Shown in pieces: positions 24,358 through 48,448 of a stretch of DNA of 48,448 nucleotides (positions are counted from its first letter, which is position 1; each line of letters starts with the position of its first letter). A program made the position numbers and the translations under genes. The notes below the pieces were generated by a model. It saw only the letters and a list, made by a program, of their open reading frames with translations. It was not told where the DNA came from and searched no databases. The DNA lies in the NCBI GenBank assembly GCA_015521825.1, contig WANL01000001.1, forward strand, positions 1-48,448. The letters run 5' to 3'. The stretch comes from Candidatus Aenigmatarchaeota archaeon. GTDB lineage: Archaea > Aenigmatarchaeota > Aenigmatarchaeia > Aenigmatarchaeales > JAADFI01.

Positions 24358-25941
24358 TCACCTCTCGGACAATCCGAACGCTTCCTGAGGTGTCAGCGCC
24401 CTGTCGAAGATCATAACATCGTCGATCACTGCGGTTCCTGGACTCGTTGCTCCGTCGAAATCACCGACAAACAGCCTCCAGTCTTTGCTCGAAGCCTGCG
24501 GATTTTTGTAGTCGTAGTAAATCTCGCCGCTCTGCTCAATACTTTCGAGCTCCCTTCCGTCGTAGTAAACCGATATATGGGTTCCGTTGTAACTCATCCC
24601 TATCAGGTGCCATTTCCCGTCGTAAAGTCCGGTCGCGTTGGCGTCGATGCATCTGATACCGTTCGTCACTGTGGAGAGGCAAGCACGGATTACATCCTCG
24701 CCCCTACTCTTTGTAACGGCGATGGCCCAGCTTCTCCAGCCGGCCCAGGTGGAATTCGTCGACCTTCTGTTTATTACCCACTTACCGAAGTCCCACGTTT
24801 TATTTATTCTCAGGAAAACGGAAATTTCCTTCTGCGGATCGTACTCCGAAAAGTTATCGACCTGAAGCCAGTCGTCATAGCCGTCGAAACTGATAGCGGT
24901 CCCGCTATACCCTTCGGTCCAGTCCGGGTAGTCCACATCACCATCTATGGTCAAGGGCTGGGCCTGAGTTGCGTGCTCGCAGATGAAATTGTACCAGTTC
25001 CAGCACCTCACATCGTACCAGGTACCTCTGTAGGAGAGGACCGCGCAGTGCTCGGTTCCACCGCCGTTGTTCGGTTCTCCCGTGTTCCAGTTCGTGTAGG
25101 AACTCGTTTCGTTTGGAAGCCACTTCCAGCACCCCGCCGGTTCGTTGGGGCAGCCGTCGGGCCAGCCGTTGTTGTTGCTCAGGTCGTTCCTGTCCTGGTA
25201 GTATCCTATCCACTTCCAGCCTCGACCGGCCAGATTCAGCAGAAACGAATTTTCATTCGAGGAAGAAACAACCGGAATGTAGCCTCCCCTTCTATCACAG
25301 AAGCTCTTCGCTTCTTTCCACCTGGGATATAGCTTCCTGGGATATAGCTTCGGATATAGCTTCAGGGTGTCCATGCACCCCATGTCGATGTACTCGTACC
25401 AGTGGGTGCCGTAGGTTCCGGTTCTGTACACACACTTCCGGTCCTTTAGAAGCAGGTCGATCCTGTTCACGCTGTCCTCGGTGACCAGGCCGCTGCCTTC
25501 GTCGAAACTCCAGAAGGCAATCGCGGATTCGTCGGGTTTTAATCTAACCGACTTCTGAGCAGTAACGGTTCCGGAAGATACCTTTACCGTGTGGGTTCCG
25601 GGAGAAAACCTCCACAGGTCGAGTATCTCCAGCTCTCCTGATTTCGAACTCTGAATGTCCTGCTTTAAGCTAAAGGAAACCGGTGCGCCGTCGACAAATA
25701 CAGAAATTGAATCGTTCGTTATCACGCCGAAGCCGCAGTTTCTGAGGTATATTCTGTTTCCGGAAACCGAATCTATTCTCATGCAGGTGGAGAGCTGCTT
25801 GGTAACCTGCTGAACTTGCTTCTTTCCGGTAGCGGTCAGGCCTCCGGTGGTGGAGGTCGTCCAGGTGTAAATCACGGAAACGAGAGCGATGGTTATGACG
25901 AAAATCATGATAACCGTCAGCACAGCGGACACGCCTTTCAT
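24358..25941 (-). CDS. type IV pilin-like protein fused to a C-type lectin domain (EPN type) and a LamG/Laminin_G_3 domain, 527 aa
   Basis: N-terminus MKGVSAVLTVIMIFVITIALV. CTLD region WKEAKSFCDRRGGYIPVV..WKWIGYYQD..WNTGEPNN..HCAVL..WYDVRC..FICEH. LamG region ISFDGYDDWLQV..GKWHLIGMSYNGTHISVYYDG..IDDVMIFDRALTPQEA. Confidence 0.8.
   Translation of the reverse strand: MKGVSAVLTVIMIFVITIALVSVIYTWTTSTTGGLTATGKKQVQQVTKQLSTCMRIDSVSGNRIYLRNCGFGVITNDSISVFVDGAPVSFSLKQDIQSSKSGELEILDLWRFSPGTHTVKVSSGTVTAQKSVRLKPDESAIAFWSFDEGSGLVTEDSVNRIDLLLKDRKCVYRTGTYGTHWYEYIDMGCMDTLKLYPKLYPRKLYPRWKEAKSFCDRRGGYIPVVSSSNENSFLLNLAGRGWKWIGYYQDRNDLSNNNGWPDGCPNEPAGCWKWLPNETSSYTNWNTGEPNNGGGTEHCAVLSYRGTWYDVRCWNWYNFICEHATQAQPLTIDGDVDYPDWTEGYSGTAISFDGYDDWLQVDNFSEYDPQKEISVFLRINKTWDFGKWVINRRSTNSTWAGWRSWAIAVTKSRGEDVIRACLSTVTNGIRCIDANATGLYDGKWHLIGMSYNGTHISVYYDGRELESIEQSGEIYYDYKNPQASSKDWRLFVGDFDGATSPGTAVIDDVMIFDRALTPQEAFGLSER
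25322..25364 (-). repeat. short tandem repeat (about 13-15-bp unit, 3 copies) encoding KLYP-KLYPR-KLYPR
   Basis: Plus strand reads gggatatagcttcct gggatatagcttc ggatatagcttca, just upstream of the CTLD. The paralog at 42378-44000 has a single LYPDW. Confidence 0.7.
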
Positions 25942-29061: not shown

Positions 29062-29409
29062 ATGATGAATCTTTTCGAGCTGATCCTGGTTTACTCTTCC
29101 ATAGGGTTTGCCGTGCTTTCCGTGGTTTTCATCTACCTCTCCCTTAATCTAACCAGGGAAGCGGTCAGAAAGAAAATGCTGGCCTCGATATTCAACCTCA
29201 GATTCAGGCAGTTCGAAAGGTTCTGGAAGTGGGTCTTCCTCCTTCCGTTTATAATAATAATCTCGAGGTCGGTCGAACTGATAAAGGAGATCCAGGGCCT
29301 CGAGTTCATAAACGGGGCCTACAGGATTTTCGACTTCATAATAATATTCATAATTTTCGTCCTCACGATATCCTACTACTTTATCCTGAAAACCTACATG
29401 AAGTCTTAA
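29062..29409 (+). CDS. small three-TM membrane protein, function unknown
   Basis: 115-aa hydrophobic ORF, AT-richer than its surroundings. Confidence 0.4.
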   Translation: MMNLFELILVYSSIGFAVLSVVFIYLSLNLTREAVRKKMLASIFNLRFRQFERFWKWVFLLPFIIIISRSVELIKEIQGLEFINGAYRIFDFIIIFIIFVLTISYYFILKTYMKS

Positions 29410-30203
29410 AGGAGCAGCGTGAGGAGAAGGGCCAGCGGGAACACCGGGCCGTACCTTACCCCGTCCCGAACTGTAACGAACTTCCTGACTCTTTTAAGTC
29501 TCGATACCTCTTCCTCGGTCAGACCTTTTATGTATTTCTTGAACACACCGGCTTCCGGAACGTCCTCACCTATCACATCGCCTTTCTTGAGCCTCGAGAC
29601 CGGTATCCGCCTGTAAAATCCGTAAGCCTCGACCGCCCTGGCGAAGCGAATCGCAAATGGCGACAGGGCCAGGAGGATCCCTACCGCGAGGAACAGCGGA
29701 CTTTCAAGGACGAAGGATGCGAGGCCGAAAGCGGTAAGAAACACCGAAGCTGTGAAGAGATCCTTTCCCCGATTCCTCCTGACCGAAGCTCCGAACTCCC
29801 TCCAGACCCTGGGGTTTTTTCTGGTAACCACAGCGGAATAGACCAGGGAGTAGATACCGCCGACCAGGAAAACATTCAGGAAAAATAGCGGTGTGAACAG
29901 CGGTGTCAGGAAGCCTACGGGCAGGAGAACGCCGATGGCGACGAGGAGCTCGCCGTCCCCGCCTCCCCACGAGCCCGTGTAGTACATCAGAAGACCGAAC
30001 GTCAGGAAAAGGAGTCCGGTACCGGCCGAAAGCAGGAAGGGAAGGGGATCGCCCAGGAGGAAGGACTCGTAAGCGTGGATCCCGAGGCCGAAAATTATCA
30101 TTCCTATCGCGAGGGCATCCAGCATGTCGCTCGTTTTCAGATCGTAAAGGGCGCAGGCCGTACTCCCACCGAGGGCAACGGCCAGCTTGACGGCTTCGAA
30201 CAT
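29406..30203 (-). CDS. A24-family archaeal prepilin/preflagellin peptidase (FlaK/PibD/EppA-like) with C-terminal extension
   Basis: Start re-picked to MFEAVKLAV (ATG at 30203). First catalytic Asp context is ALYDLKTSD and the second is WGGGDGELL (GxGD). Multi-TM. The extra C-terminal part is RIPVSRLKKGDVIGEDV.. Confidence 0.75.
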   Translation of the reverse strand: MFEAVKLAVALGGSTACALYDLKTSDMLDALAIGMIIFGLGIHAYESFLLGDPLPFLLSAGTGLLFLTFGLLMYYTGSWGGGDGELLVAIGVLLPVGFLTPLFTPLFFLNVFLVGGIYSLVYSAVVTRKNPRVWREFGASVRRNRGKDLFTASVFLTAFGLASFVLESPLFLAVGILLALSPFAIRFARAVEAYGFYRRIPVSRLKKGDVIGEDVPEAGVFKKYIKGLTEEEVSRLKRVRKFVTVRDGVRYGPVFPLALLLTLLL

Positions 30204-30207
30204 ATAA

Positions 30208-30948
30208 ATGAAAAGGATTCCTGTTAAATTTAAATATTTCCCGGAACCTCTAAATATTGTGCACGTGGCTGTGATTCTGGACGGAAACAGAAGATTCGCC
30301 AGAAGATTGATGCAAAAGCCGTGGAAGGGCCACGAGTGGGGGGCCAAAAAGGTCAGGTCGCTTCTCGAATGGGGAAGGGAAAAGGGTATCAAAAGGTTCA
30401 CGCTCTACTCCCTGTCGATAGAGAATATTAAAAAAAGACCGAAGAGGGAGCTCGACTACCTTTTCAGGCTTTTCGAAAGGGAATTCCGCGACATCCTGAA
30501 GCCGGACCACGAGGTTCACCGGCACCGGATAAGAATCAGGGTGATAGGAAGGAAGGAACTTCTCCCCGAAACCCTGAGGGACCTGATAGATCGGGTGGAG
30601 TCCGAGACCGAAAGTTACGACGGTTACGAGCTGGTACTCGCCATAGCCTACGGGGGTCAGCAGGAAATAACCGACGCCGCGAAAAAACTGGCTGAAGCCG
30701 TGAAAAACGGTTCGGTTGACCCGGAAAAAATCGACGAAGCCGAGTTCTCCAGGCATCTCTACGCCGCGGACTGTCCGGACATAATTATAAGAACCGGTGG
30801 GGAAAAGAGGCTGAGTAACTTTTTGCTGTGGCAGAGCGCCTACTCCGAGCTTTTCTTCGTGGACAAGATGTGGCCGGAATTCGAGAAGGAGGACTTCGAA
30901 CGAATCCTGGAGGAATTCAGGAAGAGGCAGAGGAGGTTCGGCGGCTGA
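30208..30948 (+). CDS. uppS: undecaprenyl (cis-prenyl) diphosphate synthase
   Basis: Contains HVAVILDGNRRFA, and later AYGGQQEI and RTGGEKRLSNFLLWQSAYSELFF. An alternative GTG start lies at 30259. Confidence 0.9.
   Translation: MKRIPVKFKYFPEPLNIVHVAVILDGNRRFARRLMQKPWKGHEWGAKKVRSLLEWGREKGIKRFTLYSLSIENIKKRPKRELDYLFRLFEREFRDILKPDHEVHRHRIRIRVIGRKELLPETLRDLIDRVESETESYDGYELVLAIAYGGQQEITDAAKKLAEAVKNGSVDPEKIDEAEFSRHLYAADCPDIIIRTGGEKRLSNFLLWQSAYSELFFVDKMWPEFEKEDFERILEEFRKRQRRFGG
30226..30239. promoter_or_regulatory. shared AT-rich TATA-like element between divergent peptidase and uppS genes
   Basis: aaatttaaatattt lies about 23-36 nt from the ATG at 30203 (minus) and about 20-33 nt from the in-frame GTG at 30259 (plus). 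This suggests uppS may really start at 30259. Confidence 0.35.
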
Positions 30949-41763: not shown

Positions 41764-42339
41764 TCACCTGACGGTTATCTTTATTACCGTGGTGTTCTCG
41801 CTGGACCTGTACCTCACGAGTTCAAGGCTCTTTCCTTTCATGGTGGCGTTGGGCGAGAACTGAATCATGAGGAATCCCTTCTGAACGAGGCTGTAGGTCT
41901 CCTCTCCGGTAGGTGTCCTGACCACCACATCGCCTGAAAGAAGGATCGCATCGGATTCCGGGTACATGAACCTCATCGAATACCTGGTTACCCCGTCGGC
42001 CTCACAGGATTCCCACAGTCTTTTACCGGAGTCGATAGGTCTCCATGGGTATCCGGAGCACACAGGGTACCTGGAAATTATGGTGTAGTAGATTCCGTCC
42101 GGTCTGACCTCGAGGTCCCCGCGGCTGACCGAAAAGACACACCTGTTTCCGGCTCCCGTCCTGGCCGTCTCCAGAATTTTCTGGGCGCATTTAGTGAACT
42201 CGGACTTCACCTTGTCTATCTCGGAAGCGTCGAAGCCGCCCTGAAGGGTGTCGTATGCCCAGGGAGCCGCCACAATCGCGAGGGAAACCAGAACGGAGAA
42301 AATGAGAACCGCCTGCAGGACCGTGGACTGTGCCTTCAT
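41764..42339 (-). CDS. class III signal-peptide (minor-pilin-like) protein, 191 aa
   Basis: N-terminus MKAQSTVLQAVLIFSVLVSLAIVAAP has the same MKAQS leader as the gene at 428-1108. It ends 4 nt before the argS start. Confidence 0.55.
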   Translation of the reverse strand: MKAQSTVLQAVLIFSVLVSLAIVAAPWAYDTLQGGFDASEIDKVKSEFTKCAQKILETARTGAGNRCVFSVSRGDLEVRPDGIYYTIISRYPVCSGYPWRPIDSGKRLWESCEADGVTRYSMRFMYPESDAILLSGDVVVRTPTGEETYSLVQKGFLMIQFSPNATMKGKSLELVRYRSSENTTVIKITVR

Positions 42340-42377: not shown

Positions 42378-44000
42378 TCACTCGAGCGAAACCATTTCCT
42401 TCGGATCGACAGCCTCGGAGAGTACCCTCACGAAGTCGAGAACCATCGGAACCTGACCGAACTGGAACTCCTTCACGTAATACGTGTTGCCGTTATCTAC
42501 GACCGGCTTCGAGTAGTTTATGGGCCCGGTCTGCGGAACCGAACCGATCTTATTACCGTCGAAGTAGAGGGAAATCTCGCTTCCGTCGTAGGTCAGGCCC
42601 AGGAGGTGGAACTTCCCGTCATTTAGGTTAATACTCCCGTCTGCGCACCTGTACTCCGAAGTGTAAACACAGGCCTTGGCCAGGGTTCCGTCACCGTAAA
42701 CCTCGATACCGTAAGCCGGGTTCAGGGAATGAGCCGCCCTGTAAGCGATTCTGACGCCCTCCCACCAGTATCCGGTCTTCTTGACCCGGACGAACAGGGA
42801 AACCCGGTTCGGGGGATCGTGATCCTCGGTTATAACGGTCTTTCCACCCGGCCCAGCCTCGGTTTTGAAAAACCCGGCCGAGACAATATCGTCGTAGCCG
42901 GAGAATTTCATTACCCCGTTTTCAATGACCGGGAGCCAGGGGTACCTCAGCTCGGGTCGATCCGGCTTCTGATCGTACTCGCAGATGAATCCCATACCGT
43001 AGGTGCAGTCGGCATCCGTGAAGTTATCGTTTTTCAATCCGCAGTTGGCCGGCGGAAAACCGACCCCGATCAACCGCTCAGCGGCCGAATCAACGTTATC
43101 GGGTTGTCCGCTTTCCCAGTTGAAGTAGGACGACGGTTCGACCGAAAGCCACTTCCAGTCTCCGGCGGGCTCGTTCGCCGAACCGCTCGGAACGGAATCG
43201 GAGTATGTGAGGTCGTTAGGATCCTGGTACAGACCGATCCAGAGACCGTTGGCCCAGTAGGGCATGGAACTGAGTTCGTCCCAGGAGGAGAACACGGCCA
43301 GGTAGCCTCCGTCGTTTTCGCAGAACTTCTTGGCCGAGACCCAGTCCGGATACAGGTTCGGATCTATTTCGTCCAGGCAGCCGTAGGGATACACGATGTA
43401 GTAGCTCGAACCGTAGTTCAGGGGGTCGAGACTCGAAGACCAGCAGGGTCCATCGACTGCGCGGGCGTCAATGCCGTTAACGGTGTCGTAAACGTAGTAG
43501 CGGTAACCGACCACATTTCCCTGAAAGTCGAGCTCGGGAACGGCCGTCCAGTTGTCGTCGAACTCGAAAAAGGCGACCGAGGAGTCCGAAGGCTTTATCT
43601 TCACGAATCTCTGGCTAACGAAGGATCCGGCCGAAATTGTCATGTCGTGATCCCCGACTCCGAAGTCGTAGAGGTTCGTCAGCTCGGCGTAACCGACCTG
43701 GTTGGGCGGAATGTCCCTGCTGAGAGAGTAATCCACGGGCTTTCCGTCTATGAAGATGTTAAGGGTTCCGTTTCTCACGACTCCGGGGCCGCAGTTTCTC
43801 AGATACACCCTGTTTTTCGCTACCTGGTCTATCCTTAGACAGTACATCTGCTCGGCCTGGGTAGTTATCCTCTCCCCGGATTCCCGCATGGTCTTTCCGG
43901 TAACTCCGAAGATCCAGTTTGCCAGAAGGTAGAGCAGGGCAATTGTTACGATTATCACAAGCGTGACGGCAACCGCGGACGAAATTCCCTTCGCGCTCAC
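42378..44000 (-). CDS. type IV pilin-like protein fused to a C-type lectin domain (QPD type) and a LamG/Laminin_G_3 domain, 540 aa
   Basis: GTG start. N-terminus SAKGISSAVAVTLVIIVTIALLYLL. CTLD region WVSAKKFCENDGGYLAVFSS..LWIGLYQD..WESGQPDN..FTDADC..FICEY. LamG region KFSGYDD..GKFHLLGLTYDGSEISLYFDG. Confidence 0.8.
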   Translation of the reverse strand: MSAKGISSAVAVTLVIIVTIALLYLLANWIFGVTGKTMRESGERITTQAEQMYCLRIDQVAKNRVYLRNCGPGVVRNGTLNIFIDGKPVDYSLSRDIPPNQVGYAELTNLYDFGVGDHDMTISAGSFVSQRFVKIKPSDSSVAFFEFDDNWTAVPELDFQGNVVGYRYYVYDTVNGIDARAVDGPCWSSSLDPLNYGSSYYIVYPYGCLDEIDPNLYPDWVSAKKFCENDGGYLAVFSSWDELSSMPYWANGLWIGLYQDPNDLTYSDSVPSGSANEPAGDWKWLSVEPSSYFNWESGQPDNVDSAAERLIGVGFPPANCGLKNDNFTDADCTYGMGFICEYDQKPDRPELRYPWLPVIENGVMKFSGYDDIVSAGFFKTEAGPGGKTVITEDHDPPNRVSLFVRVKKTGYWWEGVRIAYRAAHSLNPAYGIEVYGDGTLAKACVYTSEYRCADGSINLNDGKFHLLGLTYDGSEISLYFDGNKIGSVPQTGPINYSKPVVDNGNTYYVKEFQFGQVPMVLDFVRVLSEAVDPKEMVSLE

Positions 44001-44033: not shown

Positions 44034-46208
44034 TTACCTTGTGAGAATGTAGGTCTCGGCGTAGCCTCTGTCGGTCACAACCGCTACCTTGTACCTTTCG
44101 TTCTTTTCGAGGGAGGCGTTTACCGTGAGCGTGAAGCCTCCGTCCGGACCGGTGAGGGTATAATTCCTGTAGAGCCAGGGCGCGTCCTCGGTGCAGTAGA
44201 CAACATCCGGCTTACAGACGAAGAGGGAAACCGGAATGTTCGGAACCGGTGTCATGTTTGAAGAAAGGGCGTAGGCGGAAACCGAAATTATGTAAGGATA
44301 AACGTTCGGAACTATTCTAAAGGAAAGGATGGAGGTTCCGAAAGTGTCGGGATAGCCCGTTGTCTTGACTATTCTCACGTAATAGGTTCCGGGGTCTGCG
44401 GTGAAGGTGAGGGAGGCGTTGCTCCTCGTGTAGTTAACGAGCTCCCAGGTGGAATTGTCCCCGTCAGTGTCTACGAAAATCGTGTAGTTGTCGATGTACT
44501 CGAGCGTGGCCTCCATTTCGGCGGAATCGATGTAAAACGCACCGTTGAATCCGTTGTAGCTCAGGTCGAACCTTATTCTGACCTCGGAGTCCGGTACGCT
44601 AAAGGTCGAGGGATCGAGGTCTATTACAACCGGTCGGAATTCCTTGGAGGAGTTTACAGAAGTTACCTGCCCGGCTTTTGTCCCGTTGACAAAAACGCTT
44701 ATCGAAGTTACGTTGGTCAAAAATCCTGTGCCGTTGTCCGAAAGGAACAGCGTTACTCTGGCGCTCTTCACCCTCACCTGAGAATCCGGATACGCCTTAG
44801 CGACCGGGTTGAAGGGAATCTCGATTCCGTTGAACCGAACCGGCTGGGACATCTCGAAGTACGCGAGCTGGCCCGGTCTGGCCGCTACGGACCAAGCGGT
44901 TCTGACCTCAAGCACACCCCTTCCGGAAACATCGTCCCTAATGCTTTTCATCCCGAGAGTCGACGGGTCCTTAAAACTTTCGTGAATGTTAACGGCAGCG
45001 AACCTCCACTTTTTATCCGCGTAAAGCGGGGTGGAATATCTCTTTTTGTCCGGGTAAAAGTAGGGGTTCCCGAAAAGTTTGAACGCTGAAACCGGGGATT
45101 CCTTCGGAGAGGAGGTCAGGTTCCTGGTGGACGGAAGCGGTGAAATCGTTACGGTCACGTTGGAAGGCACCGTTATATTGTAAACTATAACCTTCGAGCA
45201 CTCGTCTGCACAGGACGGATCGAAACAGTCTATCCTTCCGTCGAAATTGTCGTCTAGTCCGTCCCTGCAGTTCTTTTCCTTCCTGTAGCACCCGACGGTA
45301 TTGTAAACACTCCCTCCCGGAGTCACCGCCCCACACTCCGCGGTGTACCACTCAACACCGAACGGTTTTTTACAACAGTAAGCGTAATTCGGATCGTTCG
45401 GATCCACCGCACAACCTTCGCCATCGGGGCAGGTCTCAGTAGGACTGTAAGATATTCTTACTATTTTCCATTTATTATTCCAGTAGAAGCTGGTGTAACC
45501 TACTCCCGGAGAAGACTGGCTTCCGCCGACAGCGCAGACAGTCCCATCTGGCTCGCCCTCGCAGGCTCTTTCCCTCGGTTTACACTTCCCGTTGACCCAG
45601 GCGCAGGCAGCGGTCTGAAGACACTGCTCGTAAGTGAAATCCGAGCAGTTCACGCGATAGATCCGGAACATTTCTGACTCGGTACACGGAAGCCACTGGT
45701 ACTCAATCCGACCGTCTTCAATTCCGCACGGATAATTTGGATTATAATTCTGCCACCAGTAATCATTGTAATCTGTAATTATATAAACGGGACAATCATT
45801 GTCTCCGGTCCCGAAAACAGTACAGGACTGAGTCACGAAAGTTTTATCCAACCCCCCGTACCTCGCCGTTGTTTTATAAGAAAGCATATTAGCCGGCGCG
45901 CACGGAGCTCCCATTACTTTGTCGATCTCGTATTCACAGTTAGGATCTCTGTGAAAGGATGTTTCAGCTCCCATGGGTTTTTGTAACAAGTAATGAAGGT
46001 AATTTACCTTATTGGGGTCTGTATCCACACACGGATTGGTATACTCACAACACTCTCCGTACGTACAACTGCTAGTAATGTAAGCGCTTCCGTAGTTATC
46101 GTAGCAGTAACCGGAAGTAACCCAGTCACAAACTACGGCATACGAACCTTCGGTGAGTAGGAACAGACCGGTTCCGATGGCAGCCACCAGGAAAATCAAA
46201 GACCTCAT
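44034..46208 (-). CDS. secreted 724-aa protein: Cys-rich N-terminal half, beta-rich C-terminal half
   Basis: Signal peptide MRSLIFLVAAIGTGLFLLTEGSYA. Dozens of Cys lie in the first 340 aa or so, including CRDGLDDNFDGRIDCFDPSC (MopE/TSP3-like metal-binding pattern). Many N-x-S/T sequons. The C-terminus is CarboxypepD_reg-like (YTLTGPDGGFTLTV..YKVAVV). Confidence 0.7.
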   Translation of the reverse strand: MRSLIFLVAAIGTGLFLLTEGSYAVVCDWVTSGYCYDNYGSAYITSSCTYGECCEYTNPCVDTDPNKVNYLHYLLQKPMGAETSFHRDPNCEYEIDKVMGAPCAPANMLSYKTTARYGGLDKTFVTQSCTVFGTGDNDCPVYIITDYNDYWWQNYNPNYPCGIEDGRIEYQWLPCTESEMFRIYRVNCSDFTYEQCLQTAACAWVNGKCKPRERACEGEPDGTVCAVGGSQSSPGVGYTSFYWNNKWKIVRISYSPTETCPDGEGCAVDPNDPNYAYCCKKPFGVEWYTAECGAVTPGGSVYNTVGCYRKEKNCRDGLDDNFDGRIDCFDPSCADECSKVIVYNITVPSNVTVTISPLPSTRNLTSSPKESPVSAFKLFGNPYFYPDKKRYSTPLYADKKWRFAAVNIHESFKDPSTLGMKSIRDDVSGRGVLEVRTAWSVAARPGQLAYFEMSQPVRFNGIEIPFNPVAKAYPDSQVRVKSARVTLFLSDNGTGFLTNVTSISVFVNGTKAGQVTSVNSSKEFRPVVIDLDPSTFSVPDSEVRIRFDLSYNGFNGAFYIDSAEMEATLEYIDNYTIFVDTDGDNSTWELVNYTRSNASLTFTADPGTYYVRIVKTTGYPDTFGTSILSFRIVPNVYPYIISVSAYALSSNMTPVPNIPVSLFVCKPDVVYCTEDAPWLYRNYTLTGPDGGFTLTVNASLEKNERYKVAVVTDRGYAETYILTR

Positions 46209-47905
46209 ATGACCACCCAGGTTTCAGTATCCTTTTTTATTTCTCCCAGCTCCTGAATCTTTCCGGTAGGCGGGATGCAGTAGTAGTATTCCGGCACGCA
46301 CTTCGAAGCCCCGGGAGTGTAAGCAGCGTACGGGCACCATTTACAGCCCTGAGTGTTATCACATACCCTCTTTTTCTCTTCGTCCGTGGTCAGACCTTTT
46401 TCACATGCAGCGCAGTCCCACGCTCCACAACCCCGATCCGGCGGACAAGCCCCGGCCTCCTTACAGCCTATTTGAAAGCCGCACCAGTCGCAGGTGGAGA
46501 AACTCTCGCAGGTCGTCGGGTCCCAGTAATTCTGGCAGCAGTCTTCCGGACAATTCTCCGGAGTCTCGCCATAAGCAGTCTCGCAGATGCCGTTGGGAGT
46601 CCCGGTGAGAGTTCCGGTAGCCGGGTCGTAGCAGGATCCGCACGGCGTGGGCTTACAGGTTCCGGAACACCAGTAACAGCCGGCGTTCTCACAGTCCGTC
46701 TGGGTCTGGCAGTTAACGCAGCTGGAAGCCGTACAGTCGGAAGGAACCGTGCCCGTGGGCTGGCACTTAACGGTTAAACCGGCCGGAAGGGTACACGACT
46801 CCAGCCAGGACTCGCAGTTTATCTTTCTGTCCCGGTAGTAACTCCACCCGTTCGTTTTCGAAGGTCTGCAGGTGAACCTGGTCGGGTCGCTGTTGGTGCA
46901 GGGCGAATCGTCCGTTCCGGTCATGCAGTACAGCCCGTCCGCGCACTCGTCGTTACACTGGCAGACGTCTCCCTCGGTCTTCGCGAACCCGAGGACCTTG
47001 AGGCAGGGATCGCACTTTTCCGTGTCTATCGCGTCCTCGTAACTGCAGATCGGAACGCACTTACCGTTTTCGCACTTGAAATCCGGCGGGCACACGAGCT
47101 TTCCGTAGGAGCACTGCGAATCCCTGGAAGGACAGAAGGCCTCGAGAACGGTCGTGTTGTCGACGCAGTAGTCCGAGATGGTTTGAAGGACTTTGTCTCC
47201 CTCTCCGTACTCGCAGGTACCGGAGGAAAACTTAGTGTCCGGATACAGGCCAGGAACATCTGGAGAATCACTATCGTAGCACCACGGCCACGGTGGGGGT
47301 TCCGACTTTTTACAGAAAAACTTGTGGGTGGAGTTGTAAGATATTTCGTAACCTTCCGGGCATCCGACCTCGACATTAAACCATACCGAAGCGTTTACAG
47401 ACTTTACATTCTTGGGATTTACACAGACGTCCGAGTAAAAAGACCAAGAAGCATCGATTAGCAAAACGGTTCCGGAAGCACCTTTTAAATTATAGGTATA
47501 ATCCGTTGCTGTCCACCTTTCCCATCCTGAAATTAACCCACACCGTTCATTCAGGGGCTGTGGATTTGAAAGACATTCGTAAGTCACCCTGCTCTTAACC
47601 TGTTCATTAACTCCGTTGTTATCCGTGCAGGTAGTTATTCTATGACCAACACCCGTGATTGCGCACCATCCTACGTTATTCTCGTCCCAGTCGCACGGAA
47701 CTTCTACGAGCAATTGACGGGTAAGCGTTGTCTCCTCAGCTGTATCTATAACGTAACAGGTAGCGCCAACGAGAGTTGGATCCGTCGGGGCTCTTTCAAG
47801 AGGGCAGTCGCTCTCCAGACGAACTTGAAGGGTGGTCCCGAAAGCGGGTGGAAACAGTAGTAAAAACCCTATCAGAATTAAAATCAAAGGGGTACCCCTG
47901 TTCAT
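46205..47905 (-). CDS. secreted 566-aa protein, about 10% cysteine, with PSI-like Cys patterns
   Basis: Signal peptide MNRGTPLILILIGFLLLFPPAFG. About 56 Cys by hand count. Contains CTASSCVNCQTQTDCENAGCYWCSGTC and CAACEKG..CDNTQGCKWC (C..C..C...CxWC). ATGA overlap with the downstream 724-aa gene. Confidence 0.7.
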   Translation of the reverse strand: MNRGTPLILILIGFLLLFPPAFGTTLQVRLESDCPLERAPTDPTLVGATCYVIDTAEETTLTRQLLVEVPCDWDENNVGWCAITGVGHRITTCTDNNGVNEQVKSRVTYECLSNPQPLNERCGLISGWERWTATDYTYNLKGASGTVLLIDASWSFYSDVCVNPKNVKSVNASVWFNVEVGCPEGYEISYNSTHKFFCKKSEPPPWPWCYDSDSPDVPGLYPDTKFSSGTCEYGEGDKVLQTISDYCVDNTTVLEAFCPSRDSQCSYGKLVCPPDFKCENGKCVPICSYEDAIDTEKCDPCLKVLGFAKTEGDVCQCNDECADGLYCMTGTDDSPCTNSDPTRFTCRPSKTNGWSYYRDRKINCESWLESCTLPAGLTVKCQPTGTVPSDCTASSCVNCQTQTDCENAGCYWCSGTCKPTPCGSCYDPATGTLTGTPNGICETAYGETPENCPEDCCQNYWDPTTCESFSTCDWCGFQIGCKEAGACPPDRGCGAWDCAACEKGLTTDEEKKRVCDNTQGCKWCPYAAYTPGASKCVPEYYYCIPPTGKIQELGEIKKDTETWVVI

Positions 47906-47910
47906 AGTTT

Positions 47911-48448
47911 TTATTTTACCTCTGTTGTATTTATATATTTTAATTTTAACGAATCCAGAATCCAGGGAAAATCTTCCCGGAGCTTTTCCACGTCCTCGGT
48001 AACGTCGACCGTGATGTTCTTCGGTGGAGAATACTCGTCTATACTTTCATTACTGTATCTAACCCTTTTCTGCAGATCCTCCCAAACACGCTTTACGAAT
48101 CCTTCCTCGTCCCCTGCTAAGAGTTTATCCACCCCTATTCTCCGCAGGTATTCTTCGGTGGTCTCACCCTTTATTTCCGTTTCAACGACCGGCACCTTTC
48201 CGGTCTTGTTACCGATGGTGACATTTTTATATTTCACCTCAATCACGGGGCCGCAGAAAGGTATAAGACCCCTGTGGGTCTGGACGAATGTTTCCCGATC
48301 CACGTAAGGAATGGATTTCTCACCCCTTATCAGCTTTAAGTAAATTTCGGCCAATCTGCTCGGGAATCCGGTCACATGCGAATCTTCGTGGCCAATAATG
48401 TTAATAGTGGTATAGGACTCGTGAGGAGATAAAGCCAAATCTTCATTC
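47911..48448 (-). CDS. hypothetical protein, 5' end outside the window; contains an HExxH-like HEDSH motif
   Basis: The frame stays open to the window edge (the TTG at 48438 is only a track artefact). Reads ..TINIIGHEDSHVTGF.. It ends 5 nt before the 566-aa gene start. Confidence 0.45.
   Translation of the reverse strand, partial: NEDLALSPHESYTTINIIGHEDSHVTGFPSRLAEIYLKLIRGEKSIPYVDRETFVQTHRGLIPFCGPVIEVKYKNVTIGNKTGKVPVVETEIKGETTEEYLRRIGVDKLLAGDEEGFVKRVWEDLQKRVRYSNESIDEYSPPKNITVDVTEDVEKLREDFPWILDSLKLKYINTTEVK

What the first reader, a model, noticed from the sequence alone, without database searches (positions are those of the whole stretch)
46205..47905. 566-aa secreted protein with about 10% cysteine and PSI-like CxWC modules
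After a clear signal peptide, I counted about 56 Cys by hand. The C-terminal third contains three stretches with the spacing C-x4-5-C-x2-C-x..-C-x-W-C-x3-C: CTASSCVNCQTQTDCENAGCYWCSGTC, CESFSTCDWC and CAACEKG..CDNTQGCKWC. This resembles plexin/semaphorin/integrin (PSI) domains.

The middle region has EGF/follistatin-like CPPDFKCENGKCVP. Such disulfide-knot modules are very unusual for archaeal proteins, and this one is translationally coupled (ATGA) to the next gene.
Basis: partly seen in the sequence, partly recalled or inferred. Interest (0 to 1): 0.6.

Follow-up and report, generated by a model that had tools for sequence, protein, structure and literature searches.

The report
Archaeal secreted protein with PSI-like modules
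A tiny heat-loving archaeon from hydrothermal vents encodes a real, exported, disulfide-packed surface protein built from small cysteine modules, one of which is a divergent relative of the PSI module known from animal plexin, semaphorin and integrin receptors; it probably helps the cell attach to a host.

Summary
ORF 46205-47905 (-) encodes 566 aa with 56 Cys (9.9% against 1.26% genome-wide), a Sec-type signal peptide, three CxWC motifs (0.17 expected, P=4e-4) and an ATGA overlap with the next gene. Four alleles from vent metagenomes keep the frame and all 56 Cys.

The full-length protein is confined to one species-level population, but it is a mosaic of modules shared with other DPANN archaea.
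- aa 209-285 is a 68-aa six-Cys module found in 169 of 371 genomes of the class, with no Pfam or PDB match.
- aa 390-425 is a clear member of a "SC..SCE.AGC.W(C).G.C" module family found in 31 of 371 genomes. The two later CxWC stretches are degenerate copies.

The protein does not match Pfam PSI directly. Profile-profile comparison does link the module family (89-94%) to DPANN sequences that sit at the Pfam PSI cut-off, and links those (87.5%) to animal PSI domains. Foldseek's best, non-significant hit is the MET receptor.

The gene lies in an operon with a 724-aa Cys-rich protein, a lectin-tipped pilin and a minor-pilin-like gene, and its aa 199-245 region is hypervariable. The likeliest role is a disulfide-stabilised attachment component. 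That function is inferred, not shown.

The parts
47837..47905 (-). Sec-type signal peptide, aa 1-23 (MNRGTPLILILIGFLLLFPPAFG|TT)
   Evidence: It is the only hydrophobic segment of the protein. It is a Sec-type n-h-c peptide by inspection, not a class III (pilin) signal.
47312..47836 (-). Lineage-specific N-terminal region, aa 24-198, with 10 Cys and predicted beta-rich
   Evidence: No homolog appeared in the 5.8-billion or 1.8-billion protein searches. The AF2 single-sequence model is poor. 6.5-12% of positions vary among the four alleles.
47171..47311 (-). Hypervariable segment, aa 199-245 (substitutions, indels, mosaic allele patterns); it overlaps the long insert in the six-Cys module
   Evidence: 36% of positions vary among four alleles, against 0-4% for aa 291-566. 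For aa 101-245, dS is 0.094 and omega 0.6; for aa 246-566, dS is 0.01 and dN is 0.
47051..47281 (-).
   Evidence: phmmer hits P0002 and P0003 at E 8e-8 and 1e-6. Alignment A4 defines the module. It occurs in 169 of 371 genomes of the class. It has no PDB or Pfam match.
46745..47050 (-). Cys-rich spacer, aa 286-387 (CSYEDAIDTEKCDPC...CQCNDECADGLYC...), nearly invariant among alleles
   Evidence: No family match was found. No amino-acid position in aa 291-380 varies among the four alleles.
46631..46744 (-). PSI-type module 1, aa 388-425 (DCTASSCVNCQTQTDCENAGCYWCSGTCKPTPCGSC)
   Evidence: The family HMM built without the window's own sequences scores E=2.5e-9. AF2 with alignment A2 gives pLDDT 82. 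The top Foldseek hit is MET chain 6gcu_A at E=2.3. A chain of hhalign comparisons links it to PSI.
46535..46594 (-). Mini-motif GICETAYGETPENCPEDC, aa 438-457 (C.E..GE...CP.DC type)
   Evidence: The same motif appears in large open frames of relatives G024 and G037 and in the L022 protein.
46436..46558 (-). Degenerate module 2, aa 450-490 (CCQNYWDPTTCESFSTCDWCGFQIGCKEAGAC)
   Evidence: It scores 38.3 bits only with a profile that includes the window's own sequences, and is not significant with the non-own HMM (iE 12). The order of the core Cys is kept, by inspection.
46277..46417 (-). Degenerate module 3, aa 497-543 (CAACEKG..VCDNTQGCKWCPY...KCVPEYYYC)
   Evidence: It scores 44.6 bits only with a profile that includes the window's own sequences, and is not significant with the non-own HMM (iE 8.7).
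46205..46208 (-). ATGA overlap between the stop of the 566-aa gene and the start of the 724-aa gene
   Evidence: Read directly from the sequence. The same arrangement is found in L002 and L049.
44034..46208 (-). Downstream partner gene: 724 aa, Sec signal, 30 Cys in the N-terminal half, 15 N-glycosylation sequons, and a conserved C-terminal domain of about 110 aa
   Evidence: The C-terminal domain is shared with other proteins in three families of the order. The G001 relative carries a different Cys-rich head.
42378..44000 (-). Pilin-like protein (class III signal KG|ISSAV...) with C-type lectin and LamG-type domains
   Evidence: Pfam gives Lectin_C at 8.8e-6 and Laminin_G_3 at 8.5e-9. The gene sits in the same place in L049.
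41764..42339 (-). 191-aa minor-pilin-like protein (MKA|QSTVLQAVLIF...)
   Evidence: The N-terminus was read by inspection. It has a weak DUF7289 hit at E=0.048.
47911..48448 (-). Upstream gene, cut by the contig end (at least 272 aa in L049), with an HE..H motif; it ends 5 nt before the 566-aa start
   Evidence: The ORF is seen. No significant family match was found.

Best explanation
The gene encodes an exported, heavily disulfide-bonded, modular surface protein of a thermophilic, small-genome (DPANN-type) archaeon from hydrothermal vents.

Shown:
- It is a real gene under constraint.
- It has a Sec-type signal and no membrane anchor.
- Its order of parts is a lineage-specific N-terminal region, a hypervariable segment, one copy of a widespread DPANN six-Cys module, an invariant Cys-rich spacer, one clear PSI-type module, two degenerate copies of it, and a short tail.

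Inferred: the Cys form disulfides. All 56 are invariant among alleles. Exported proteins of this genome carry even Cys counts 36:4, against 149:170 for cytoplasmic-type proteins.

Inferred mechanism: the invariant Cys-rich C-terminal half acts as a rigid, heat-stable stalk or docking platform, the role PSI and EGF modules play in animal receptors. The variable N-terminal part is the exposed, ligand- or host-facing surface and diversifies by mutation and recombination. The protein is made together with the translationally coupled 724-aa partner, whose conserved C-terminal domain probably holds the pair at the cell surface. It acts alongside the lectin-tipped pilin and the minor pilin encoded directly downstream, in attachment to a host cell or surface.
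For: Real gene and architecture.

Conservation:
- Four alleles exist; all 56 Cys are invariant and the frame is intact.
- dN/dS is 0.40. Across aa 246-566 there are no non-synonymous changes.
- Variants about 91% identical at the nucleotide level occur at 248-331x depth in vent metagenomes from other studies.

Disulfides: the even-Cys bias in exported proteins gives Fisher p=6e-8. The estimated growth temperature is about 74 C.

Surface and adhesion context:
- The operon is tight and has the same order in L049.
- The pilin-lectin gene is downstream.
- A prepilin peptidase, a second pilin-lectin and an archaellin-like pilin lie in the same window.
- The same module occurs in pilin-like proteins inside pilin clusters, in membrane-anchored surface proteins, and in giant open frames of 1000-13,314 aa.
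- The segment aa 199-245 is hypervariable and mosaic among alleles. This fits the excess of non-synonymous SNPs reported for Nanoarchaeota hypothetical external proteins (PMC6142677).

PSI link.
Against: - There is no expression data; no RNA run holds the gene.
- No binding partner, localisation or disulfide has been observed.
- The protein has no anchor of its own, so surface retention rests on an assumed complex with the 724-aa protein.
- No VKOR and no obvious exported thioredoxin-fold oxidase was found in this 88%-complete genome. Vent fluids can be reducing, so how the disulfides would form is unexplained.
- The module is not confined to pilin loci.
- The sister genus lacks this protein, so it is not an essential conserved part of any machine.
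- The N-terminal domain could not be modelled.
Confidence: 0.6

Rival explanations
1. The CxWC modules only look like PSI by convergence. On this view they are an independent DPANN invention, a small cystine-stapled hairpin around a GC.W core, with no common ancestry with eukaryotic PSI domains.
For: - The protein has no direct Pfam PSI match.
- Direct comparison of the family with eukaryotic PSI gives only 9-12% probability over 12-25 columns.
- The trypanosome VSG C-terminal domain fragment scores as well as PSI (17.2).
- The invariant Cys of the family has a PSI counterpart only if the C3-C4 loop is shortened by four residues.
- The Cys after Trp is variable in the family.
- The Pfam PSI scores of the linking DPANN fragments fall to or below the cut-off in whole-ORF context.
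- The Foldseek E-value is 2.3.
Against: - All eight linking fragments hit PSI and no other family among 24,736 Pfam models.
- Both steps of the link reach 87-94% HHalign probability, and this survives removing the window's own sequences and same-protein sequences.
- Unrelated Cys-rich domains score 5.7-7.8, against 11.2-19.7 for five PSI domains.
- None of 300 column permutations reaches the observed profile-profile score.
- The co-occurrence of Cys residues matches PSI pairing.
- One G235 module has all eight PSI Cys in order.
- MET is the best of 350,542 PDB chains.
Confidence: 0.3
2. It is a structural component of the cell envelope or coat, an S-layer-associated or matrix protein, with no specific role in pili or host attachment. 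On this view the neighbouring pilin genes are only neighbours.
For: - The module also occurs in membrane-anchored surface proteins that lie away from pilin genes.
- The six-Cys module is found in nearly half of the class, in many architectures.
- The 724-aa partner carries 15 N-glycosylation sequons and a shared C-terminal domain, as coat proteins do.
Against: - The operon with the two pilin-type genes is tight (5-nt gap, ATGA overlap, then gaps of 33 and 38 nt) and is kept in a second assembly.
- The sister genus lacks the protein, which is unlike a core coat component.
- The hypervariable, recombining segment suggests an interaction surface.
Confidence: 0.2
3. The cysteines bind metal (Zn, Fe, Cu or other vent metals) rather than forming disulfides. 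The protein would then be an extracellular metal-binding or detoxifying protein.
For: - The habitat is a hydrothermal vent.
- There are CxxC...CxxC pairs in module 1 (C396/C399 and C422/C425) and in module 3.
- No disulfide oxidase was found.
Against: - Exported proteins of this genome show a strong genome-wide even-Cys bias, which is typical of disulfide bonding.
- The Cys spacing follows conserved module patterns, not metallothionein-like CC or CxC runs.
- There are only 2 His.
- Cys residues are gained and lost in pairs across the family.
Confidence: 0.06
4. The ORF is not a functional gene: a chance ORF, a pseudogene or a gene that is not expressed.
For: There is no RNA evidence, and no homolog is known outside one species-level population.
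Against: - A 566-codon frame is intact in four alleles down to 92.9% identity, and indels are in frame.
- All 56 Cys are kept.
- dN/dS is 0.40, and aa 246-566 show no non-synonymous change.
- The protein has significant module-level homology to many other proteins.
- The gene is translationally coupled inside an operon.
Confidence: 0.02

Closest known systems
PSI (plexin-semaphorin-integrin) domain, Pfam PF01437; e.g. the MET PSI domain (1ssl), integrin beta1/2/3, Sema3A
   Same: - It is a small extracellular cystine-knotted module with a C-x-W-C core followed by C after 3 residues.
- Module 1 has eight Cys in PSI order.
- AF2 predicts a short helix plus a hairpin across the C.WC...C stretch, and the best Foldseek hit is a MET chain.
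- The inferred pairs Ca-Cc, Cb-Ce and Cd-Cf equal PSI C1-C4, C3-C6 and C5-C7 (the PSI map is from my own knowledge).
- A profile chain links the two through DPANN intermediates.
- Like PSI, it sits as a spacer before beta-sandwich domains in some relatives (L022: modules, then CARDB, then a membrane anchor).
   Different: - The protein does not reach the Pfam cut-off, and no hit is reported at all.
- The C3-C4 loop is 4 residues, where animal PSI has about 8.
- Most family members lack the C2-C8 pair, and many lack C5-C7.
- The host proteins have no Sema, integrin or IPT domains.
- The organism is an archaeon.
- Direct similarity to animal PSI is weak (9-12% HHalign probability).
Uncatalogued cysteine-rich surface proteins of DPANN archaea
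   Same: - They are exported, Cys-rich, modular and often next to pilin-like genes.
- They share the 68-aa six-Cys module (169 of 371 genomes), the GC.W module (31 of 371) and the CE..GE...CP.DC mini-motif.
   Different: - This protein is a single-species mosaic with one copy of each module rather than long tandem arrays.
- It has an orphan N-terminal domain.
- It has no membrane anchor.
- It has the highest Cys density in its genome.
C-terminal domain of the trypanosome variant surface glycoprotein (2jwh)
   Same: It is the best direct phmmer hit in the PDB (E=0.25). It has the same C-x4-C-x-W-x4-C spacing, and its hhalign score against the family is 17.2. It is also a small disulfide-stapled module of a variable surface protein.
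   Different: The match is not significant and covers only 17 columns. It is a four-Cys domain of a eukaryotic parasite, and there is no evidence of common descent.
Modular type IV pilins and pilus-associated adhesins of bacteria (e.g. Streptococcus sanguinis PilC, PilY1-type tip proteins); own knowledge
   Same: An adhesion-type protein is encoded together with pilin and minor-pilin genes, and lectin modules are fused to a pilin in the same operon.
   Different: The 566-aa protein has a Sec signal, not a class III pilin signal. It shows no sequence or fold relation to these proteins, and its association with a pilus has not been shown.

Membership tests
Pfam PSI (PF01437) | Match to the family HMM at or above the gathering cut-off (23.1 bits) | tested here: not met
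   hmmscan of the whole protein and of five pieces reports no PSI hit, even at E<=10. A PF01437 search of the whole genome in six frames gives no hit at E<=10.
Pfam PSI (PF01437) | Cys pattern with a C4-x-W-C5 core, C6 three residues later, and up to eight Cys in a fixed order | tested here: met
   Module 1 reads C396-x2-C399-x5-C405-x4-C410-x-W-C413-x3-C417-x4-C422-x2-C425. The order is the same as in the G235 module with eight Cys and as in MET PSI. The loop lengths differ.
Pfam PSI (PF01437) | Disulfide map C1-C4, C2-C8, C3-C6, C5-C7 (own knowledge of PSI structures) | tested here: inconclusive
   The test is only presence/absence covariation across 28 family members. Cd and Cf co-occur 14 of 15 times against 2 of 13 (Fisher 5e-5), and Ca and Cc are lost together in L018 and L027. 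This is consistent with the PSI map, but no coordinates or chemistry were available.
Pfam PSI (PF01437) | PSI fold | tested here: inconclusive
   AF2 of module 1 with alignment A2 gives pLDDT 82. Foldseek against the PDB returns only two hits. The best is 6gcu_A (MET, which holds a PSI domain at residues 498-541), with TM 0.56 over 38 columns and 24% identity, but at E=2.3. The tool does not report which residues were aligned.
Pfam PSI (PF01437) | Profile-level link to accepted members | tested here: met
   The link has three steps. The window's own modules match the rest of family A2 at 95.9%. A2, without the window's own and same-protein rows, matches six DPANN PSI-hit fragments at 89.4% (E 2e-6). 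Those six match the MET/ITGB1-3/SEMA3A alignment at 87.5% (E 4e-6). All eight fragments hit only PSI in Pfam. The direct comparison of A2 with animal PSI gives only 9-12%.
DPANN 'SC..SCE.AGC.W(C).G.C' module family (alignment A2, uncatalogued) | Significant match to a family profile built without the query | tested here: met
   An HMM of 25 non-own members finds aa 390-425 at E=2.5e-9. Modules 2 and 3 are not significant (iE 12 and 8.7).
DPANN 68-aa six-Cys module (alignment A4, uncatalogued) | Significant sequence match to independent members; six conserved Cys plus D..D and E positions | tested here: met
   phmmer of the whole protein hits P0002 (E 7.8e-8) and P0003 (E 1.4e-6) over aa 212-291. 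The invariant columns are C1, D5, D37, C39, E47, C50, C64, C70, G73 and C75.
EGF-like, follistatin or Kazal modules | Match to any EGF, Kazal or follistatin profile | tested here: not met
   No such Pfam hit appears at E<=10 for aa 245-351. hhalign of human EGF against A2 scores 6.1, which is background.
Archaeal type IV pilins (class III signal peptide) | A short charged leader ending in K/R-G/A, directly followed by the hydrophobic helix | tested here: not met
   By inspection the N-terminus is a Sec-type n-h-c peptide with an AFG|TT cleavage site. The two downstream genes do carry KG|ISSAV and KA|QSTV class III signals.

The most novel reading that the evidence does not exclude
PSI-type cystine modules, regarded as a hallmark of eukaryotic plexin, semaphorin, integrin and MET receptors, are a genuine and widespread building block of DPANN archaeal surface proteins, with this protein carrying a trimmed variant. 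On this reading the eukaryotic and archaeal modules share ancestry, by descent or by transfer. The DPANN versions, together with the uncatalogued 68-aa six-Cys module found in nearly half of the class, would form a disulfide-based extracellular adhesion toolkit used for cell-to-cell attachment by ultra-small symbiotic archaea.
Probability: 0.3. Interest if true: 0.7.

Novelty: new variant of a known kind. Interest (0 to 1): 0.5.

Why it matters
DPANN archaea live attached to other cells, and how they attach is largely unknown. This protein is a concrete, testable candidate: it is exported, built for stability at high temperature, variable where one would expect it to touch a partner, and co-encoded with lectin-tipped pilins.

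The work also defines two small cysteine modules that are common in this archaeal class but absent from Pfam, NCBIfam and the PDB sequence set. It gives the first profile-level link I could find between one of them and the PSI domain of animal receptors. No paper in the searched library discusses PSI domains in archaea.

If the link holds, it bears on where eukaryotic extracellular adhesion modules came from. It would also give annotators two new domain models for thousands of "hypothetical" DPANN surface proteins.

Tried and rejected
- **Full-length homolog searches.** The search for homologous proteins on the whole protein and on aa 360-566, the exhaustive phmmer over 1.8 billion representatives, and 61 relatives' genomes returned only near-identical alleles plus module-level hits.
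- **Genome-contig scan.** It gave one spurious Oscillospiraceae hit and left out the window's own genome, so the organism's name was not obtained.
- **Paper searches for accessions.** JALTQR and SAMN12239314 found nothing.
- **AF2 of the full protein without an alignment.** The result was unusable (pLDDT 37.5), so the N-terminal domain stays unmodelled.
- **PDB sequence searches.** The searches with the protein and with profiles A1, A2 and A4 found nothing significant.
- **A plain HMM of six DPANN PSI-hit fragments.** It does not find this protein.
- **NCBIfam.** No hit for the 566-aa protein. The 724-aa partner has a sub-threshold "acidic double-disulfide repeat" hit.
- **RNA evidence.** No run holds the gene.
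- **Disulfide-forming enzymes.** No VKOR and no obvious exported CxxC thioredoxin-fold protein was found, although ORFs under 100 aa were not screened.
- **Readings rejected.** These were an EGF/follistatin module, a pilin (Sec-type signal), a metallothionein-like protein (Cys spacing, only 2 His, paired gain and loss of Cys) and a chance ORF.
- **A possible fourth module copy.** The 724-aa partner has a look-alike stretch (CSDFTYEQCLQTAACAWVNGKCKP), but the HMM does not detect it.

Full report
**1. The observation**

The minus-strand ORF 46205-47905 is real. It has an ATG start and encodes 566 aa.
- It holds 56 Cys (9.9%), 58 Thr, 43 Pro and only 2 His.
- In a crude census of about 511 ORFs of the 495-kb, 30-contig genome, it is the most Cys-rich protein; the overall Cys content is 1.26%.
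- C.WC occurs three times, at aa 410, 472 and 521. Shuffles of the mature sequence give a mean of 0.17, and 3 or more occurrences turn up in 0.043% of 100,000 shuffles.
- The only hydrophobic segment is the N-terminal Sec-type signal MNRGTPLILILIGFLLLFPPAFG|TT. There is no C-terminal anchor.
- The stop overlaps the next start as ATGA, and the upstream gene ends 5 nt before the ATG.

**2. Organism and habitat**

- The window encodes archaeal housekeeping genes: proteasome alpha, GINS51, Hjc, GatD/GatE, a PriS-PriL-type primase and ArgRS.
- The genome is about 0.5 Mb at 88% completeness. This is the DPANN pattern. The tools withhold the organism's name.
- The DNA is found in hydrothermal-vent metagenomes from three studies.
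- The IVYWREL fraction of the proteome (0.436) suggests growth near 74 C by the Zeldovich relation. This is a rough estimate.

**3. It is a functional gene**

- The 90% cluster holds four alleles, at 100, 98.6, 97.0 and 92.9% identity. One is 563 aa because of in-frame indels.
- All 56 Cys columns are invariant.
- Against L002, dN/dS is 0.40. Across aa 246-566 there are 0 non-synonymous and 2 synonymous changes. Across aa 101-245, dS is 0.094 and omega is 0.6.
- Variation is concentrated in aa 199-245. There 36% of positions vary and there are indels, against 0-4% for aa 291-566. P0010 combines blocks of two other alleles, which points to recombination.
- Contigs from two other studies carry variants about 91% identical at the nucleotide level, at 10x and 248-331x depth.
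- No RNA run holds the gene, so expression is inferred from constraint only.

**4. Anatomy and relatives**

No full-length homolog exists outside this population. The sister genus of the same family lacks the protein. The protein is a mosaic of smaller parts.

(a) *aa 209-285: a six-Cys module.* This stretch matches repeats in P0002 and P0003 (E 7.8e-8 and 1.4e-6). P0003 is a hypothetical protein from Candidatus Micrarchaeota.
- The module is about 68 aa, with the pattern C.D.D.G...DYC.D..T..E..C...CP....C..G.C (A4).
- It occurs in 169 of 371 genomes of the class (100 of 170 genera), often in tandem.
- It has no PDB, Pfam or NCBIfam match.

(b) *aa 438-457: a mini-motif.* GICETAYGETPENCPEDC recurs in large open frames of relatives.

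(c) *aa 388-425: the CxWC module.* DCTASSCVNCQTQTDCENAGCYWCSGTCKPTPCGSC matches P0005 (CEDAGCYWCNGACQTEPCG) and short stretches in relatives.
- A 28-sequence alignment (A2) gives the core SC.......SCE.AGC.W(C).G.C...(P)C.
- The family occurs in 31 of 371 genomes, often in open frames of 1000-13,314 aa.
- An HMM of the 25 members from other genomes finds aa 390-425 at E=2.5e-9.
- That HMM does not find the second and third CxWC stretches significantly (iE 12 and 8.7). These keep the order of the core Cys with longer loops, and are best called degenerate copies.

**5. Is the module a PSI domain?**

Direct tests fail.
- Pfam gives no PSI hit for the protein or its pieces, even at E<=10.
- PF01437 finds nothing in the whole genome at E<=10.
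- Profiles A1 and A2 hit no PSI chain among the PDB sequences.

Indirect tests agree with each other.
- *Fold.* AF2 of module 1 with A2 gives pLDDT 82, a short helix and a hairpin over YWC/TCK. Foldseek against 350,542 PDB chains returns two hits. The best is the MET receptor, which holds a PSI domain (TM 0.56, 38 columns, 24% identity), but at E=2.3.
- *A2 against single PSI domains.* A2 scores 15.6 against the MET PSI domain; 3 of 300 shuffles reach that. It scores 11.2-19.7 against integrin beta1/2/3 and Sema3A PSI. EGF, BPTI, crambin, hirudin and other Cys-rich parts of this protein score 5.7-7.8.
- *A2 against an animal PSI profile.* The score is 17.6, and none of 300 column permutations reaches it. 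Only 12 columns align, and the probability is 12%.
- *PF01437 over the class.* Hits appear in 45 of 371 genomes at E<=0.1. Four are over Pfam's cut-off, all in ORFs of 648-2262 aa, against 0 of 14 control genomes over the cut-off.
- *Adjacent modules.* In G235 and G272 the PSI hit lies directly beside an A2-type module in the same ORF. One G235 module (LSCNNYLSCSSCVAAGCYWCSAGNCVADCESC) has all eight PSI Cys in order, with short loops.
- *Linking fragments.* Eight such DPANN fragments (A6) each hit PSI and no other Pfam family (best 27.8 bits). In whole-ORF context the scores fall to or below the cut-off (21.2 bits, or none), so they are borderline members.
- *The hhalign chain.* The window's own three modules match the rest of A2 at 95.9% (E 6e-9). 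A2, without the window's own and same-protein rows, matches six PSI-hit fragments at 89.4% (E 2e-6). Those six match the animal PSI alignment at 87.5% (E 4e-6).
- *Register.* In this alignment the invariant "SCE" Cys equals PSI C3 and "GC.W" equals C4. The C3-C4 loop is 4 residues, where animal PSI has about 8.
- *Cys pairing.* Across A2, the Cys after Trp and the "PC" Cys co-occur 14 of 15 times against 2 of 13 (Fisher 5e-5). Two members lose Ca and Cc together. The inferred pairs Ca-Cc, Cb-Ce and Cd-Cf equal PSI C1-C4, C3-C6 and C5-C7 (the PSI map is from my own knowledge). The sequences are not phylogenetically independent, so this is supportive only.

My reading is that module 1 is a trimmed PSI-type module, at about 70% for relatedness to the DPANN PSI-scoring set. 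Shared ancestry with animal PSI is likely but not proven. The VSG C-terminal domain fragment scores as high as PSI, which shows how little information these short motifs carry.

**6. Disulfides**

Among ORFs with an N-terminal hydrophobic segment and no other membrane span, 36 have an even and 4 an odd number of Cys. Among ORFs without any hydrophobic span the split is 149 to 170 (Fisher 6e-8). This is the classical sign that exported proteins are disulfide-bonded.

No VKOR and no obvious exported CxxC thioredoxin-fold protein was found in this incomplete genome. How the disulfides are made is therefore open.

**7. Context and likely function**

The gene order on the minus strand is:
1. an unknown gene with an HE..H motif, cut by the contig end;
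2. a 5-nt gap, then the 566-aa gene;
3. the ATGA overlap, then a 724-aa protein with a Sec signal, 30 Cys in its N-terminal half and 15 N-glycosylation sequons;
4. a 33-nt gap, then a 540-aa pilin-like protein with Lectin_C and Laminin_G_3 domains;
5. a 38-nt gap, then a 191-aa minor-pilin-like protein;
6. ArgRS.

An independent assembly (L049) has the same order. The window also holds a prepilin peptidase, a second pilin-lectin and an archaellin-like pilin.

The last 110 aa or so of the 724-aa protein recur at the C-termini of different proteins in three families of the order. One of these is a G001 protein with an unrelated Cys-rich head. This fits a shared surface-retention domain.

The module's genomic context varies. 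In family f4, the GC.W module sits at the end of pilin-like proteins inside pilin clusters. Elsewhere it sits in signal-peptide proteins with a CARDB-type beta-sandwich and a C-terminal membrane anchor, away from pilin genes. It is therefore a general extracellular module, not a pilus-specific one.

Taken together, the best-supported model is a disulfide-stabilised, heat-stable surface protein. Its invariant Cys-rich half would serve as a stalk or docking platform. Its variable N-terminal part would face the partner, and it would be retained through the co-translated 724-aa protein. It would act with the lectin-tipped pilins in attachment. [quoted passage not shown] All functional steps are inferred.

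**8. Novelty**

The protein itself is an orphan. The kind of protein is not new: Cys-rich exported DPANN proteins recur in earlier notes of this scan (these are leads, not evidence).

Three things are new here:
- the definition of two uncatalogued modules, with their distribution;
- the profile-level bridge from one of them to PSI;
- the allele-level picture of an invariant cystine scaffold next to a hypervariable segment.

I found no paper on PSI domains in archaea in the searched library.

Noticed in passing
G000 contigs C27:6418-6807 (-) and C11:12331-12675 (+): Two further small exported proteins (129 aa with 12 Cys; 114 aa with 10 Cys) are nearly as Cys-dense (9.3% and 8.8%) as the 566-aa protein. 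The C27 protein gives a weak hit to the GC.W module HMM (domain iE 0.023-0.063).
   Followed up: partly
whole genome G000: Exported-type ORFs carry an even number of Cys 36:4, against 149:170 for ORFs without hydrophobic spans (Fisher 6e-8). Yet no VKOR and no obvious exported CxxC oxidoreductase was found, so the disulfide-forming machinery of this organism is unidentified.
   Followed up: partly
window 44034-44400 (aa ~605-724 of the 724-aa protein): The C-terminal domain of about 110 aa (ISVSAYALSSNMTPVPNIPVSLFVCKPDVVYC...DRGYAETYILTR) recurs at the C-termini of otherwise different proteins in families f1, f2 and f4 (52-30% identity). It has no Pfam match and is a candidate shared surface-retention domain.
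   Followed up: partly
window 47911-48448; L049:1-819: The gene upstream of the 566-aa gene (at least 272 aa) has an HE(D/Y)SH motif. Its only family matches are sub-threshold hits to Peptidase_M48 (E 0.24) and arcadin-4 (E 0.005). Both assemblies break inside or just upstream of it.
   Followed up: partly
L049:2522-4270: In the ENA assembly the 724-aa homolog has a scaffold gap (a run of X) exactly in its N-terminal Cys-rich head. This suggests strain-level variation there too.
   Followed up: no
L054, L055, L056, L059 (genomes G111, G210, G185, G275): Long ORFs (648-2262 aa) of other genomes of the class contain stretches such as SLCRGYASSCSGCVESMLCGWSTSQQKC. These reach Pfam's PSI gathering score in six-frame fragments (23.2-27.2 bits) but drop to or below it in whole-ORF context. 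They are borderline canonical PSI-like domains in archaea.
   Followed up: partly
L022:985-2076 (genome G148): A 363-aa protein has the order signal peptide, CDPGETCSNCLQDC mini-motif, two tandem GC.W modules, a CARDB-type beta-sandwich and a C-terminal membrane anchor. This order recalls the PSI-IPT arrangement of plexins and MET.
   Followed up: partly
L015 and L016 (genomes G004, G011): Conserved clusters of four to five small genes with pilin-type N-termini. One gene (189-313 aa) ends in the GC.W module, and a small upstream protein ends in a Cys-rich CxCxC..C tail.
   Followed up: no
window 24358-25941 and 29406-30401: A second pilin-like Lectin_C + Laminin_G_3 protein and a Peptidase_A24 prepilin peptidase lie 16-22 kb from the operon, with KaiC-type ATPases between them.
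   Followed up: partly
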